55,277 nucleotides of DNA, taken from contig JAHLWP010000030.1 in assembly GCA_019057865.1 (NCBI GenBank), forward strand, positions 1 to 55,277, written 5' to 3'. The first letter of the stretch is position 1; the number at the start of each line of letters is the position of its first letter. A program made the translations under genes and the position numbers. Origin of the DNA: Promethearchaeota archaeon. Its GTDB lineage: Archaea > Asgardarchaeota > Lokiarchaeia > Sigyniarchaeales > SOKP01. The notes below the pieces were generated by a model. It did no database searches. It saw only the letters and a program-made list of their open reading frames with translations, and was not told the DNA's origin. Positions 4,196-14,531 of this stretch are shown here, in pieces.

Positions 4196-4305
4196 TGGCG
4201 CCCACAGCGGGATTTGAACCCACGTCGTTCTCCTCAATTAATATCTATCTATTAATGATCAGGAGTGACAGTCCCGAATGCTAGACCAGGCTACACTATG
4301 TGGGC
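4196..4305 (-). tRNA. tRNA-Asp(GTC) with 32-nt intron (4228-4259) at about position 43/44; CCA encoded
   Basis: Acceptor GCCCACA/TGTGGGC, anticodon arm CGGGA-CTGTCAC-TCCTG, T arm GTGGG-TTCAAAT-CCCGC. The intron forms a CTCC/GGAG central helix with 3-nt bulges TGA and AAC. Confidence 0.92.
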
Positions 4306-10325: not shown

Positions 10326-11533
10326 TTAACTTATTTTAATAGAAATCTTACAATTTTCTTTATCAGTTTGCAAGAGTTTGAGATGTTCAGGTACTTCATT
10401 AAGGGAGATTTCTTTTGTGATTATTGGAGTTAAATCCATTCCAGTTGCCATACAATTTATCACATTTGGAAAATTACCATGCCCCGAATGACCTTGAGAT
10501 CCTACGATGCGAGCTCTCCTTACTTGGAAGTATTCACCACAAACAGGCATTTTTTGTTCTGTTCTAGCAACAATAACCACCGTACTATTAACTGATTTAC
10601 ATTCCCATATTGCATTTTGTATATCATCTGTAACAATATCAGGTAATCCCGTAGCTTCAAGATATAGGGCAGCTCCCTCATTATCAGTATATAGTTTTGT
10701 TGCTTCAACAAAATCTTCTTTTAAAGGGTTGATCACATAATCAGCACCCAATTTTTTCGCTAACGATGCTCGATTTTCTTCTGGTTCTGAGACAATACAT
10801 ATAGCAGCTCCAGCGGTTTTTAAAATTTTAACTGCTGCTAAACCAATAGGACCAGCTCCCAAAATAACCACATTTTCACCTGGTCGAATTCCGCCCCCTC
10901 TTTCTATAACGGCATTGTAAGCAACTGAAGTTGGTTCTACTAAACTACCAATTTTAAAAATATCATCATATTTTTGTTCTAATTTTTTCAAACTCCAGCA
11001 TAATTTTGCTGGTACAGCAATGTATTCAGCATATGCACCATCAATAGAAAAACCAATTTCCTGTAATCGCTCACAATGGTTTGGATAGCCATCACAACAA
11101 GGTTTACATTCGCCACACCAAACCATTTCTTCTACAGTAACCGGTTCTCCTACTTCATAAAGTTTACCAGTTCTTTTATTAATTGCTTGACTACCAACTT
11201 CAACAATTTCACCTGCAAATTCATGTCCAAGGGTGACAGGGAAAGCTGTTAAACCAGGATAATAAATGTATCCATCATCATATGCTTGAGCCATATGTAC
11301 ATCAGAACCGCATATTATGGTCTTGAAAGTTTTCTTTCAAGAATTCCACATCTTTTGACCTTAATTAAAACCTCTTTAGGATTGGGTTTAGGCTTTTCCT
11401 TATCAATAACTTTAACAAAGGGAAATTTCCATACTTGTGACCCTAGATATGTTAATTTTTCATCAATATCCTTTGGTCCAGGTTTAAAGGATGGTTTTGG
11501 TTCCCATTTTGCGGATATTTCTATGGCTTTCAT
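10326..11533 (-). CDS. iolM: scyllo-inosose 3-dehydrogenase (Zn-dependent MDR), two exons: 11533-11344 and 11314-10326; 392 aa after splicing
   Basis: Exons of 190 and 989 nt join to read KRCG-I-CGSDVHMAQ. GHE, CGECKPC...C and GAGPIG motifs are present; strong resemblance to Thermotoga IolM. Confidence 0.85.
11315..11343 (-). other. predicted 29-nt BHB mRNA intron in iolM
   Basis: Transcript reads AU-GUGG-AA|U-UCUUGAAAG-AAAA-CUUUCAAGA-CCAU-AA|U-AU: 4-bp central helix, two 3-nt bulges and a 9-bp hairpin. Confidence 0.85.
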
Positions 11534-11681: not shown

Positions 11682-14531
11682 TTAAATATTCCTATAATAA
11701 TCTCTAAACTTATTTATCAAAGAAACAGCATTTTTTCCATTGTCATTTAAGTAGTATTTAGTAGGGTTAGCCTTAGATCTTGTTCCACGAATAATTCCTA
11801 CATATTGTCTCATTACATCATATCTCCTACTAAAGAAACTTATTATAGATGACTTATCCTTATATTCTAAATATTCCTTTAAACTGATATTGGTAGCATC
11901 ACGTCCTGACTTTGATATCTCATAAATTGCAATTAAAAACTTCATAAAACCATCAGTATCTAAAGTGGGTTTAATTAAAGGGTTTCTAATTGCAGAATCT
12001 ACACAATCAATAGGCGCAAATTCTCTGGTAACACGATTATAATCGTTAAAGACTTGTCTTACATTATTTTTATGATCATAAATTTCATTCAATAAAGGAA
12101 TAAATTTATTATGATGAAGAATTCTATGACAATTTGAACAAATATATCCTCCCTCTTCTTTTTCTATGATTCGGATAATTTCAGAGCATGGAAGATAGTA
12201 TACCTTACTAATGTTAACTGTTTTCGTTTCTTCATTTTTATGATGATAAGTGAATGCGGGTAAATGTTTGCTTATTCTGAATTCTCCACAAGTATGACAA
12301 AATTCTCCATAAAAATATTCTATAATATATCTTTTTTTTAGATATCTAGCAATTGCATCTCTTATCCCTGCTTTGGTGTTTGGGGTTAATCTTGTAGTCT
12401 CACGAAAATTGTCTACTGAAATCCTAATAAGTGCATGAATTAGCTCAGGGGGATAAGAAAAGATATCTTTCCAATTTATAATATATTTAAAATATCCGTA
12501 ATATTTATCTTCTAAAATACGATGATGATTTCTACATATAAGAACCACGTGTTCCGATTCCATTAACTTAATTATCAATTCTAAGAAATGTGGATTAGAC
12601 AAATTTTTAGTAAATAGCTCGTATAGCTTTGAAGCAGTAAAATTATTATCCTTCTCACCAGAAGTGTGGTGAAATTCTAATGCTGTTAGTCTTGAAATAT
12701 CAGTATTTATAATTAATCCTTCTTTTTGGCATTGGGGACACTTACTTTTCCCGTTTTTAAAATATTTACCATTATAAATATTTTTTATGGCAAATAATTT
12801 TAATTTACTTCCAATAATTCTTCGTAAATCTTTTTCTTTTTTCATTCTTTGTTTGTCTGTAAGACTTTCTTCTTTTGCTCGATATGCTCTAGGTGGAAAA
12901 AGATCAAAGTATTTTTCTCTTAAAAAATCGTAAATTTCTCTTATAGAAAAAACAAAACGATATTTTTGAAGTAAATTAATACCATTTTCTTTTAAAAAGT
13001 CAACTAAAGGTTTTATATATACACGTGCCCCAATCTTTTTATGGACCTTACTTGTATTGGCCAATAATTTAATTATTTCAGCTAAATCGGAAAAGAATTT
13101 GATAAATACATCTCGATATTGAGTTACCATATTACGTAGTGAATTAATATCTTTTTTAAAATTGTCTCCAAAATATTCTTTAAAAAATTCTGAAAAAATA
13201 TTCTCCTCTAGTTTTAAAATTAGTTCGGATGTTTCAATCTCTGTATTCTTTATCAATTTGAAAAAATATAAAGAAATAATCAGTCTAATCCTTTTAAACC
13301 CATATATTGCTAATTCCATTCTTGGATATAACTGTTCAAAATATGTTTTGTAGTACCTATTGACACTACTAGGTATTATGTTAGCCAATTTAGCTATCTG
13401 TCTTGTACTAATTTTGGGTACATTTTTGTCTATAAGAGCTACGGTGTAAATGATCGTGCTGGCAATTACTTTAAGATTTACGTTTTTAGGAATATAGAAT
13501 TCATTATTTTCTGCCCTTGAAATGAAATCATCTAATATTTCTATGGATTTTGACCAAATAAACTCTTTTTGGTCTGTTGTACCATCGATTAAATCATATA
13601 ACTTTTTTAAATTATTAATTAATTTCTGTTTAAAATGAGGTATCGAGATAGAAAGTACCATCGTGGTTTCTTTATCTTTTATTGCAACTTGTATATCTTC
13701 TCTTTTTAATTCTCTGCATAAACCAGCTTCTAAAAATTCATGATAAGCTGAAAAAAGCTCAAATGCAGATATCCCTTGCGTTAATATTTCGGGGGCTTTT
13801 CCCAATAGTAAAGTAAAAGTTCCGACGTGGAGGATCTTATCGTATTCTTCTTTAAGTATTGAAAGAGATCTATTTTGTATTAGAGATGCGCTTCCTTTTT
13901 TATCTCTTGAAACTTGAATTTCATTTAAATACTCTTTTAACCAAATCTGGATAAAATTTCGTACTTCATCGGAAAATGGACGCAATTCTTCGGGATTATG
14001 AAATATTTCGGATTTTTTGCGGAGATTTTGCAGGAAATTGGTATATTCCCCTGCAATTTTTTTTAACCCCGAACGCAACTTCTCATGAGGCTTTTTTGAG
14101 GATTTCTCATTTTGAAGGGATTTTCTCTGCTTTCTACTCAGTAATTTCATGTAGCTCCTTGATAATCCGTCCATATAATTTGAAACAATTTGGGCCCCTC
14201 TTCCTAGAGGAGCACAATACATCCAACCACTAATGAAAACCTTAAGACTATTAGGGGCTTTTATTTTGATTAAGTTTATCACACTTTCTGGAGGGAGGGC
14301 TGAGACATCAAATAAGCAAGCATTTATTGCTTGGATAAAACTTCCGATAAACTCATCAACGAAAATCAAGGAAATTTTGTGTTTCGAACATTTTGGATAT
14401 TTTTGAAATCCAAGGAAACCGAATTTCAAAGGTTTGACCTTTTCAAGATGCTTGCATCCAAAATGTGGACAAATTGCGATCCGATCTTCTTCAACCGTTT
14501 TTCTGCTTACTTGGTCGTGTCTCTCGATCAT
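11682..14531 (-). CDS. 949-aa multidomain protein: N-terminal Zn finger, TFIIB-like cyclin/HTH segment, two HNH-like nuclease domains, C-terminal wHTH-like region
   Basis: CPHFGC...CSKH; IASTIIY...ISTRQIAKLANI...VNRYYK; CPQC...LEFHH...ICRNHH; CHTC...FTYHH...ICSNCH. Confidence 0.65.
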   Translation of the reverse strand: MIERHDQVSRKTVEEDRIAICPHFGCKHLEKVKPLKFGFLGFQKYPKCSKHKISLIFVDEFIGSFIQAINACLFDVSALPPESVINLIKIKAPNSLKVFISGWMYCAPLGRGAQIVSNYMDGLSRSYMKLLSRKQRKSLQNEKSSKKPHEKLRSGLKKIAGEYTNFLQNLRKKSEIFHNPEELRPFSDEVRNFIQIWLKEYLNEIQVSRDKKGSASLIQNRSLSILKEEYDKILHVGTFTLLLGKAPEILTQGISAFELFSAYHEFLEAGLCRELKREDIQVAIKDKETTMVLSISIPHFKQKLINNLKKLYDLIDGTTDQKEFIWSKSIEILDDFISRAENNEFYIPKNVNLKVIASTIIYTVALIDKNVPKISTRQIAKLANIIPSSVNRYYKTYFEQLYPRMELAIYGFKRIRLIISLYFFKLIKNTEIETSELILKLEENIFSEFFKEYFGDNFKKDINSLRNMVTQYRDVFIKFFSDLAEIIKLLANTSKVHKKIGARVYIKPLVDFLKENGINLLQKYRFVFSIREIYDFLREKYFDLFPPRAYRAKEESLTDKQRMKKEKDLRRIIGSKLKLFAIKNIYNGKYFKNGKSKCPQCQKEGLIINTDISRLTALEFHHTSGEKDNNFTASKLYELFTKNLSNPHFLELIIKLMESEHVVLICRNHHRILEDKYYGYFKYIINWKDIFSYPPELIHALIRISVDNFRETTRLTPNTKAGIRDAIARYLKKRYIIEYFYGEFCHTCGEFRISKHLPAFTYHHKNEETKTVNISKVYYLPCSEIIRIIEKEEGGYICSNCHRILHHNKFIPLLNEIYDHKNNVRQVFNDYNRVTREFAPIDCVDSAIRNPLIKPTLDTDGFMKFLIAIYEISKSGRDATNISLKEYLEYKDKSSIISFFSRRYDVMRQYVGIIRGTRSKANPTKYYLNDNGKNAVSLINKFRDYYRNI

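What the first reader, a model, noticed from the sequence alone, without database searches (positions are those of the whole stretch)
11309..11351. Canonical bulge-helix-bulge intron inside a protein-coding gene (iolM) of an Asgard-like archaeon
Seen: a 29-nt insert (11315-11343, minus strand) splits the Ile codon of the catalytic-zinc motif CG-I-CGSD, shifts the frame and ends in an in-frame TAA. The pre-mRNA folds as an AU/AU outer helix, a GUGG/CCAU 4-bp central helix, two AAU bulges and a 9-bp UCUUGAAAG/CUUUCAAGA hairpin. Cutting after the second nucleotide of each bulge gives TGT GGA A|TA TGC GGT, restoring a 392-aa IolM. Established: this is the archaeal EndA cleavage rule, and BHB mRNA introns are best known from crenarchaeal cbf5. 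Inference: the tRNA splicing machinery splices a metabolic mRNA here. Standard annotation would call this a pseudogene. I do not recall a described iolM intron but could not search.
Basis: partly seen in the sequence, partly recalled or inferred. Interest (0 to 1): 0.95.

Follow-up and report, generated by a model that had tools for sequence, protein, structure and literature searches.

The report
tRNA-type mini-intron inside Asgard iolM
A 29-base insert shaped like a tRNA intron splits the only iolM (inositol-pathway dehydrogenase) gene of an Asgard archaeon; comparative evidence says the messenger RNA is cut and rejoined by the tRNA-splicing enzymes, which in the papers searched is confirmed for only one archaeal coding sequence (cbf5).

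Summary
A 29-nt insert (11343..11315, minus strand) sits inside the Ile codon of CG-I-CGSD. The IolM profile reads 1-64 in exon 1 and 66-386 in exon 2. The RNA can form a 4-bp helix GUGG/CCAU, two AAU bulges and a 9-bp hairpin. Cutting after the second bulge base gives exactly the junction (GGA ATA TGY) found in 20 intronless orthologues.

It is not an assembly artefact. An independent assembly of the probable source run spans it at depth about 270 with no difference.

It is not a pseudogene. Homologous 29-30-nt inserts occupy the same site in 11 other diverged iolM genes. Their hairpin is kept by compensatory changes while the loop drifts, and both exons are under strong purifying selection (dN/dS 0.05 and 0.14, as in intronless copies).

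The same genome carries equally exact 30-32-nt inserts in single-copy S12, aEF-2, acs and a thiolase. It encodes intact EndA alpha and beta subunits and RtcB.

The intron lies at the edge of an imported recombination tract.

No RNA data exist, so splicing is inferred, not seen. This scan has noted the same phenomenon before on other Asgard DNA. The papers I could search confirm only cbf5 and one Haloferax 5' UTR.

The parts
11344..11533 (-). iolM exon 1 (ATG at 11533; 63 codons plus the first base of the split Ile codon)
   Evidence: NCBIfam NF041097 profile positions 1-64. It aligns to residues 1-63 of 20 intronless orthologues.
11315..11343 (-). 29-nt BHB-type intron. It shifts the frame and carries the TAA (11317-11315) that ends the exon-1 ORF.
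   Evidence: Absent, to the base, from 20 orthologues. Homologous 29-30-nt inserts lie at the same site in 11 other iolM genes.
10326..11314 (-). iolM exon 2 (last two bases of the Ile codon, 328 codons, and the stop at 10328-10326)
   Evidence: NCBIfam NF041097 profile positions 66-386, 414 bits. dN/dS is 0.05 among intron-bearing copies.
11346..11349 (-). central helix H, exon strand (GUGG, inside the Cys-Gly codons)
   Evidence: Pairs with 11320-11317. Invariant in 12 variants.
11343..11345 (-). bulge 1 (AAU); predicted 5' cut between 11344 and 11343
   Evidence: The BHB rule, cut after the second bulge base, is as stated in PMC2738675. This bulge is AAU or AAA in all 12 variants.
11321..11342 (-). 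intron hairpin h' (9-bp stem 11342-11334 with 11329-11321, loop AAAA 11333-11330)
   Evidence: Present in the fold. 107 of 108 cells are paired across 12 variants, with compensatory double changes at 3 stem positions and a freely varying loop.
11317..11320 (-). central helix H, intron strand (CCAU)
   Evidence: 42 of 48 cells are paired across 12 variants. CUAC also keeps 4 pairs; ACAU, ACAC and CCAA keep 3; ACAA keeps 2.
11314..11316 (-). bulge 2 (AAU); predicted 3' cut between 11315 and 11314
   Evidence: AAU in all 12 variants. The two cuts together give GGA A|TA TGC, the orthologues' junction.
11312..11313 (-). outer helix h, 3' strand (AU), pairing with 11351-11350. It is weak, only 2 bp.
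   Evidence: Read from the sequence. Paired in 9 of 12 variants; the next position is always G.G.

Best explanation
The 29-nt insert is a genuine archaeal bulge-helix-bulge (BHB) intron in the coding sequence of the only iolM gene of this Asgard (Lokiarchaeia-type) archaeon.

Proposed mechanism:
1. The gene is transcribed with the insert.
2. The four exon bases GUGG pair with CCAU at the 3' end of the intron, and the 9-bp intron hairpin stacks beside them. This presents two AAU bulges on opposite strands.
3. The heterotetrameric (alpha-beta)2 splicing endonuclease EndA cuts after the second base of each bulge.
4. RtcB joins the exons to give ...GGA AUA UGC... and probably circularises the intron.
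5. The joined mRNA encodes the 392-aa IolM with its CGICGSD zinc motif.

Shown here:
- the anatomy of the motif
- the exact agreement of the predicted junction with intronless orthologues
- long-term retention of the intron, with structure-preserving changes
- purifying selection on both exons
- the same kind of insert in essential genes of the same genome
- intact genes for the enzymes

Inferred, not shown: the cleavage and ligation themselves.

The allele reached the G000/L049 lineage by recombination. A foreign block of about 115 nt of exon 1 ends at the intron.
For: 1. Exact junction. All 20 orthologues checked read GGA-ATA/ATT-TGY with nothing between. The BHB cuts reproduce this.

2. Beyond chance. 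A shuffled insert gives a BHB at a usable register in 0.17% of trials with h' of 4 bp or more, and in none with 9 bp. Only 1 of 29 rotations works.

3. Conservation. More than 25 truncated exon-1 ORFs in public assemblies stop right after VKRCG. DNA of 11 further variants shows a homologous 29-30-nt insert at the same site. The hairpin is paired in 107 of 108 cells, with G:C to U:A, G:C to A:U and U:A to G:U double changes, while the loops vary freely. Both bulges are conserved.

4. Selection. Among intron-bearing pairs dN/dS is 0.053 for exon 2 and 0.141 for exon 1. Among intronless pairs it is 0.066 and 0.130. Every complete intron-bearing copy keeps 63 + 328 open codons.

5. Single copy. 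G000 has one iolM match.

6. The same genome must splice such inserts. S12, aEF-2, acs and a thiolase each carry a 30-32-nt insert of the same architecture. NCBIfam profile coordinates are contiguous across three of them (S12 1-82|84-139; aEF-2 16-60|62-720; acs 3-288|290-398) and within one position for the thiolase (4-54|57-386). S12 is single copy, and its insert carries an in-frame TAA.

7. Enzymes. EndA alpha-like and beta-like ORFs and RtcB are all intact.

8. Real DNA. A contig of the probable source run spans the site at depth about 270 with 0 differences, and no indel was listed there in any of 4 runs, although one (X3) has no depth over the site.

9. Precedent. The cbf5 introns follow the same cut rule and depend on a hetero-oligomeric EndA (PMC2738675).
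Against: No RNA evidence exists. No listed public run that holds this DNA is RNA, so neither a spliced junction nor a circular intron has been seen.

The outer exon helix is only 2 bp. In some homologous variants the central helix has 3 pairs, and in one (L043) only 2, so recognition must tolerate relaxed motifs.

G000 and L049 are identical over 266 nt around the intron. Selection since the intron arrived in this particular lineage therefore cannot be measured. The dN/dS argument rests on the other intron-bearing lineages.

A motif-only scan of the genome showed no clear excess of BHB-joined ORFs over a mirror-image control. The motif alone is not diagnostic in this 29% G+C genome.
Confidence: 0.85

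Rival explanations
1. Pseudogene. A small palindromic insertion inactivated iolM and is not removed. The cell makes at most a 72-aa stub and perhaps an N-terminally truncated 322-aa protein from the internal ATG.
For: The insert shifts the frame and brings in a TAA. Gene callers split the gene into 72-aa and 322-aa ORFs in every assembly. Within this lineage, the time since the intron arrived is too short to measure selection. iolM is a dispensable catabolic gene.
Against: The same insert type persists at this site across lineages with dS above 1. Their exons stay intact, with dN/dS 0.05-0.14, and the stem is kept by compensatory changes. Identical architecture interrupts single-copy S12 and aEF-2 in the same genome, where inactivation would be lethal. 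The sequence has no other copy in the genome, so it is not a repeated mobile element.
Confidence: 0.06
2. The insert is removed or skipped by another route: ribosomal bypassing (as in T4 gene 60 or the yeast mitochondrial 'byp' elements), or cleavage by an RNase other than EndA.
For: The size (29 nt), the hairpin and a stop codon soon after the take-off point recall bypass elements (my own knowledge, not tested against a library). No RNA data exclude it.
Against: Bypassing needs matching take-off and landing codons. Here GGA or AUU would have to land on AUA. In S12, GGA would have to land on AGA. In aEF-2, GAU would have to land on AAA (sequences). None of these match. The conserved features are the exon-intron 4-bp helix and two 3-nt bulges at fixed distance, which is the EndA substrate and not a bypass signal. 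A tRNA gene in the same window carries an insert of about 32 nt that can be drawn with the same layout.
Confidence: 0.05
3. Assembly or sequencing artefact: the 29 nt are not in the organism's DNA.
For: The genome is a metagenome-assembled genome in 87 contigs. Of the relatives searched (GTDB species representatives), the 20 orthologues checked (18 in the same genus) lack the insert.
Against: Logan's independent assembly of the probable source run gives an 8808-nt contig across the site at depth about 270 with 0 differences, and no indel is reported there in 4 runs. An identical insert is in GCA_019057915.1 (L049), and homologous ones are in at least 10 other assemblies from NCBI, ENA, JGI and Logan.
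Confidence: 0.01

Closest known systems
cbf5 pre-mRNA intron of Crenarchaeota (Aeropyrum, Sulfolobales, Desulfurococcales; Watanabe 2002, Yoshinari 2006, Yokobori 2009 = PMC2738675)
   Same: It is a BHB-type intron inside a protein-coding sequence, splitting a catalytic-site codon. Cuts fall between the second and third bulge residues. The motifs are often relaxed. It depends on a hetero-oligomeric EndA. It shows gain and loss among related lineages.
   Different: The host is an Asgard archaeon and the gene is metabolic. The intron is at the small end (29 nt). It is one of several in the same genome, at least five verified here, including single-copy S12. In other lineages iolM itself carries a second intron. 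For cbf5 spliced cDNA was obtained; here no RNA evidence exists.
Archaeal tRNA and rRNA BHB introns (Marck and Grosjean 2003; EndA plus RtcB pathway)
   Same: The hBHBh' geometry and cut rule are the same. The genome encodes the enzymes. A tRNA gene 7 kb away in the window has an insert of about 32 nt that can be drawn with the same layout. Asgard tRNA genes are known to be heavily interrupted (bioRxiv 10.64898/2026.10.13.758758).
   Different: The exon part of the motif is mRNA coding sequence (the Cys-Gly codons), not a tRNA stem. There is no mature-domain structure to help recognition, and the outer helix is only 2 bp.
BHB intron in the 5' UTR of Haloferax volcanii HVO_1309 (PMC7714728)
   Same: An mRNA is a substrate of the archaeal splicing endonuclease. 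It was confirmed by circRNA-seq and in vitro cleavage.
   Different: That intron lies in an untranslated leader (46 nt) and does not interrupt a reading frame. The iolM intron must be removed for the protein to be made.
Eukaryotic unconventional splicing of HAC1/XBP1 mRNA (Ire1 cleavage, RtcB or Trl1 ligation)
   Same: It is spliceosome-independent: a protein endonuclease cuts at small stem-loops, a tRNA-ligase-type enzyme joins the ends, and a short frame-shifting intron is removed (my own knowledge; XBP1 is named as a distinct intron class in bioRxiv 10.1101/2025.06.17.660180).
   Different: The nuclease is different (Ire1, not EndA/TSEN) and there is no BHB motif. It is stress-regulated. 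No regulation is shown for iolM.

Membership tests
Archaeal BHB (EndA-dependent) intron | [quoted passage not shown] | tested here: met
   GUGG/CCAU lies between AAU and AAU. Random shuffles reach this at a usable register in 0.17% of trials or fewer.
Archaeal BHB (EndA-dependent) intron | Cutting after the second bulge residue on both sides gives the functional junction | tested here: met
   The predicted junction GGA A|TA TGC equals the uninterrupted sequence of 20 orthologues, and the IolM profile is contiguous across it. The rule is as stated in PMC2738675.
Archaeal BHB (EndA-dependent) intron | Flanking helices h (exon-exon) and h' (intron) | tested here: inconclusive
   h' is a 9-bp stem, conserved with covariation. 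h is only 2 bp (AU/AU), present in 9 of 12 variants. The motif is therefore of the relaxed (HBh'-like) kind on the exon side.
Archaeal BHB (EndA-dependent) intron | Host encodes a splicing endonuclease of a type that accepts relaxed motifs, and an RNA ligase | tested here: met
   Two intact EndA paralogues are present. One matches the catalytic repeat and one the structural repeat of the two-repeat model. RtcB is intact. The L1 specificity loop reported for Asgard EndA (PMC5829648) was not examined here.
Archaeal BHB (EndA-dependent) intron | Spliced RNA, excised or circular intron, or in vitro cleavage observed | not testable with these tools
   No RNA run holds the stretch.
IolM, scyllo-inosose 3-dehydrogenase (NCBIfam NF041097, equivalog) | Full-length match above the curated cut-off (450 bits) | tested here: inconclusive
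   The exons score 58.9 and 414.2 bits separately. The joined protein could not be submitted. The intronless orthologue L004, 95% identical in exon 2, scores 503 bits over profile positions 1-386.
IolM, scyllo-inosose 3-dehydrogenase (NCBIfam NF041097, equivalog) | Zinc-dependent medium-chain dehydrogenase domains and motifs intact | tested here: met
   ADH_N and ADH_zinc_N are found in exon 2. GHE and the Cys-rich CGECKPCC...C segment are present in the translation. CGICGSD is restored only after removing the insert.
Programmed translational bypassing element | Matching take-off and landing codons flanking the gap | tested here: not met
   There are no matching codon pairs in iolM, S12 or aEF-2 (sequences).
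Repeated mobile element (MITE or IS remnant) | Multiple similar copies in the genome | tested here: not met
   blastn-short of the insert and flanks finds only itself. Introns of the five verified genes share architecture but no sequence.
Self-splicing group I or II intron | Ribozyme core | tested here: not met
   29 nt is far too short for a ribozyme core. Rfam finds only a tRNA in the window.

The most novel reading that the evidence does not exclude
This Asgard lineage runs routine, genome-wide mRNA splicing with the tRNA-splicing machinery. Dozens of micro-introns of about 30 nt interrupt coding sequences, essential and multi-intron genes included. They are being gained now: the S12 intron is unique to this genome among 41 searched. 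They also move between alleles by recombination with co-converted exon flanks: the iolM intron sits at the end of a foreign block of about 115 nt. That would be a prokaryotic population of spliced, turning-over protein-gene introns in the closest relatives of eukaryotes.
Probability: 0.75. Interest if true: 0.92.

Novelty: new variant of a known kind. Interest (0 to 1): 0.8.

Why it matters
In the papers I could search, archaeal splicing of a coding sequence is confirmed for one gene only (cbf5, Crenarchaeota), plus one 5' UTR in Haloferax.

Here a metabolic gene of an Asgard archaeon is interrupted by a tRNA-type micro-intron that evolution treats as a functional, removable element. The same genome carries such introns in S12, aEF-2, acs and a thiolase.

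If confirmed by RNA data, three things follow.
- Interrupted protein genes and enzyme-mediated mRNA splicing are routine in the archaeal relatives of eukaryotes.
- Introns can be gained recently and exchanged by recombination.
- Standard annotation mis-calls these genes as fragments or pseudogenes across public databases. Examples are the 65-75-aa and 322-aa iolM pieces, and the 702-aa versus 750-aa EF-2 calls, which may have the same cause. This distorts metabolic reconstructions of Asgard genomes.

Tried and rejected
- RNA evidence. The look-up of sequencing runs listed no RNA holder, so expression and splicing could not be examined.
- The X5 contig. It has a 'same length, diverged' stretch over 11321-11428. 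This hints at another intron-bearing allele, but its letters could not be read.
- Motif-only genome scans. I ran a strict and two relaxed BHB definitions, requiring that removal joins open frames. None gave a clear excess over a mirror-image (wrong-handed) control. Only hairpins of 8 bp or more with introns of 30-37 nt hinted at one (6 versus 1). I could not count the genome's mRNA introns this way. Five were confirmed individually by profile continuity instead.
- MAFFT alignment of the intron variants put the length gap in the stem. I therefore counted pairs with a script anchored on both splice sites and did not use the count of structure pairs.
- Pattern scans of genome contigs and metagenome contigs were narrow. 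They added only L036, L052 and L060 besides bacterial false hits.
- L048 carries an L004-like exon 1 followed, right after the Ile codon, by more than 400 nt of unrelated sequence up to the contig end. It could be a large insert, a rearrangement or a chimera; this was not resolved.
- Idea rejected: the low exon-1 identity to close relatives means decay. Exon 1 is under purifying selection, and the pattern is a recombination mosaic.
- Pfam gave nothing for the 949-aa upstream ORF.

Full report
**1. What is in the sequence**

On the minus strand the window reads ...AAA AGA TGT GGA A|TTCTTGAAAGAAAACTTTCAAGACCATAA|TA TGC GGT TCT GAT GTA CAT ATG....
- The exon-1 ORF (11533..11315, 72 aa) runs into TAA inside the insert. 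A second frame stays open from 11312 to the stop at 10328-10326.
- NCBIfam's IolM model (NF041097, scyllo-inosose 3-dehydrogenase) matches the upstream 63 residues at profile positions 1-64. It matches the downstream 328 residues at positions 66-386 with 414 bits. Exactly one residue, the split Ile codon, is missing.
- Pfam sees ADH_N and ADH_zinc_N in exon 2.
- An intronless orthologue passes the IolM cut-off with 503 bits against 450.
- The genome has one iolM match.

**2. Structure**

- The four exon bases GUGG (11349-11346) can pair with CCAU (11320-11317).
- On either side lie AAU bulges (11345-11343 and 11316-11314).
- Between them a 9-bp hairpin forms (11342-11334 with 11329-11321, loop AAAA).
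- The outer exon-exon helix is only AU/AU.
- The minimum-free-energy fold contains the hairpin and the central helix.
- Cutting after the second base of each bulge is the rule stated for cbf5 in PMC2738675. It removes 11343..11315 and gives GGA AUA UGC.
- Shuffling the insert gives such a motif at any of the four registers that would restore Ile in 337 of 200000 trials with h' of 4 bp or more, and in none with 9 bp. Of 29 rotations that keep the hairpin, only the real one works.

**3. Is the DNA real?**

No RNA run holds the stretch. DNA runs from ten studies do. Logan's independent assembly of the probable source run gives an 8808-nt contig across the site at depth about 270 with no difference. 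No indel is reported at 11315-11343 in four runs.

**4. Comparative evidence**

*Intronless orthologues.* Among 61 related genomes, all 20 orthologues checked (18 in the same genus, 77-95% amino-acid identity in exon 2) read GGA-ATA/ATT-TGY with nothing in between.

*Intron-bearing copies.* A protein search with the truncated exon-1 ORF found more than 25 ORFs of 65-75 aa in other public assemblies that stop right after VKRCG. The DNA of 11 further distinct variants shows a homologous 29- or 30-nt insert at the same position.

Across the 12 variants:
- the hairpin is paired in 107 of 108 cells
- there are double compensatory changes at three stem positions (G:C to U:A in four sequences, G:C to A:U in three, U:A to G:U in one), plus several wobble changes
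- the loop varies freely (ten different loops)
- bulge 2 is always AAU and bulge 1 is AAU or AAA
- the central helix is paired in 42 of 48 cells
- CUAC keeps four pairs; ACAU, ACAC and CCAA keep three; ACAA keeps two
Recognition must therefore tolerate relaxed motifs.

*Exon integrity.* Every complete intron-bearing copy keeps 63 + 328 open codons.

*A second intron.* Two lineages (L039, L045) carry a second 30-nt insert further downstream. It follows the same rule (GCAC AA|G ... GUGU AU|G) and restores GAQ|GHSGHG.

**5. Selection**

| Gene pairs | exon 2 median dN/dS | exon 1 median dN/dS |
|---|---|---|
| intron-bearing | 0.053 (maximum 0.10) | 0.141 |
| intronless | 0.066 | 0.130 |

The two groups do not differ. 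The interrupted genes therefore encode a protein that matters, so the insert has to be removed or skipped.

**6. The same genome must deal with such inserts in essential genes**

| Gene | Place | Insert | NCBIfam profile across the insert |
|---|---|---|---|
| ribosomal protein S12 (single copy) | C27:25030-25059 | 30 nt, in-frame TAA | 1-82 / 84-139 |
| aEF-2 | C82:40874-40903 | 30 nt | 16-60 / 62-720 |
| acetyl-CoA synthetase | C82:548-579 | 32 nt | 3-288 / 290-398 |
| thiolase | C7:117703-117732 | 30 nt | 4-54 / 57-386 |

- For S12 the BHB rule (CUGG AG|U, 9-bp hairpin, CUAG AG|A) restores the conserved PGDGA.
- They are contiguous across three inserts and within one position for the thiolase.
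- The S12 insert is unique to this genome among 41 searched. It is a recent gain in an indispensable gene, in an organism abundant enough to be sequenced at about 270x.
- The five introns share architecture, and in all ten bulges the first base is A. They share no sequence, and the iolM insert has no other copy in the genome.

**7. Enzymes**

- Two EndA paralogues are intact. One aligns to the catalytic C-terminal repeat of the two-repeat model and carries a Tyr...His...Lys pattern.
- The other aligns to the structural N-terminal repeat and lacks the His. This fits the (alpha-beta)2 enzyme reported for Asgard archaea, which has a loop that broadens specificity (PMC5829648).
- RtcB is intact.
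- A tRNA gene (anticodon GUC by my reading, tRNA-Asp) 7 kb away in the window (4199-4305, minus strand) carries an insert of about 32 nt after the anticodon arm, which I could draw with the same layout.

**8. History of this allele**

- On the exon-2 tree, G000 and L049 (GCA_019057915.1, identical intron) are nested, with 100/100 support, beside the intronless L004/L005 inside an otherwise intronless genus clade.
- The other intron-bearing genes lie outside that clade.
- G000 and L049 are identical over 266 nt (gene positions 75-340). That run covers the 3' 115 nt of exon 1, the intron and 119 nt of exon 2. They differ by 31% upstream of it and 3.8% downstream.
- L049 equals the intronless L004 over the first 50 nt, with 4 differences in nt 51-100. 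It is then about 24% different up to the intron, and returns to baseline immediately after it.
- The block next to the intron (KFPFVKVIDKEKPKPNPKE) resembles no other sampled sequence.
- The simplest reading: the intron entered this lineage with a foreign recombination tract that ends at the intron.
- G000 additionally has a different 5' end and a different upstream neighbour.
- Consequence: selection since the gain cannot be measured in this lineage itself.

**9. Rivals**

- Pseudogene: contradicted by sections 4-6.
- Ribosomal bypassing: there are no matching take-off and landing codons in iolM, S12 or aEF-2, and the conserved features are those of an EndA substrate.
- Artefact: contradicted by section 3 and by the independent assemblies.

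**10. Known or new**

- The papers I could search give cbf5 as the only archaeal coding sequence with confirmed BHB splicing. Introns in other protein genes were only 'predicted' (PMC2738675).
- A 2020 study adds a 5' UTR intron in Haloferax and repeats that cbf5 is the only other mRNA case (PMC7714728).
- A 2025 EndA paper cites only the cbf5 work for protein-coding genes.
- A 2026 preprint on Asgard tRNA introns never uses the word mRNA.
- Searches for Asgard or Lokiarchaeia mRNA introns found nothing.
- Within this scan the same phenomenon has been noted many times on other Asgard DNA: 164 notes in at least 59 genomes, several with follow-ups reaching the same reading. This instance is therefore not the first seen by the scan. 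I used those notes as leads and tested S12, acs and the thiolase myself.

**11. Verdict**

The insert is very probably (0.85) a BHB intron removed from the iolM mRNA by EndA and RtcB. It is a new variant of a known kind. What is missing is any RNA-level observation.

Noticed in passing
G000:C27:25030-25059 (minus strand; locus L027): The single-copy ribosomal protein S12 gene carries a 30-nt BHB-type insert with an in-frame TAA. The BHB rule restores PGDGA. The insert is absent from the S12 genes of 40 related genomes, so it is a recent gain in an essential gene.
   Followed up: yes
G000:C82:40874-40903, C82:548-579, C7:117703-117732 (loci L063, L064, L065): aEF-2, acetyl-CoA synthetase and a thiolase each carry a 30-32-nt insert of the same architecture, with family-profile coordinates contiguous or within one position across it. 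The acs exon after the insert is about 31 residues longer than the profile stretch it covers, which suggests further in-frame inserts.
   Followed up: partly
L039:3480-3560 and L045:3480-3560 (iolM of other lineages): A second 30-nt BHB insert (GCAC AA|G ... GUGU AU|G, with a TAA) splits GAQ|GHSGHG near codon 274 of exon 2. iolM is therefore a two-intron gene in some relatives.
   Followed up: partly
window 4199-4305 (minus strand): This tRNA gene (anticodon GUC by my reading, tRNA-Asp) has an insert of about 32 nt after the anticodon arm, a non-canonical position. Rfam finds the gene but ARAGORN misses it. ARAGORN finds few tRNAs in the contigs shown (C1-C69), which fits heavily interrupted tRNA genes.
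   Followed up: partly
window 11682-14531 (minus strand): This 949-aa ORF has no Pfam family and contains repeated CxxC...HH motifs (HNH-like by eye). It lies directly upstream of iolM, exactly where similarity to the relatives fetched stops. It may mark the rearrangement that gave G000 its divergent exon-1 start.
   Followed up: partly
window 10323/10324 compared with L004, L005, L049: The close relatives have about 800 bp between iolM and the downstream xylose-isomerase-like TIM-barrel gene; in L049 an HSP20 gene lies there. This stretch is absent from G000.
   Followed up: no
L048:490-1130: An L004-like iolM exon 1 is followed, right after the Ile codon, by more than 400 nt of unrelated AT-rich sequence up to the contig end. 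It could be a much larger insert at the same site, a rearrangement or a chimeric contig.
   Followed up: no
public gene calls for EF-2 homologues: Lengths fall into two main groups, 750 aa and 702 aa, at 78-99% identity. The 702-aa calls may be copies truncated at the same intron, which would mean systematic mis-annotation in databases. Their DNA was not examined.
   Followed up: no
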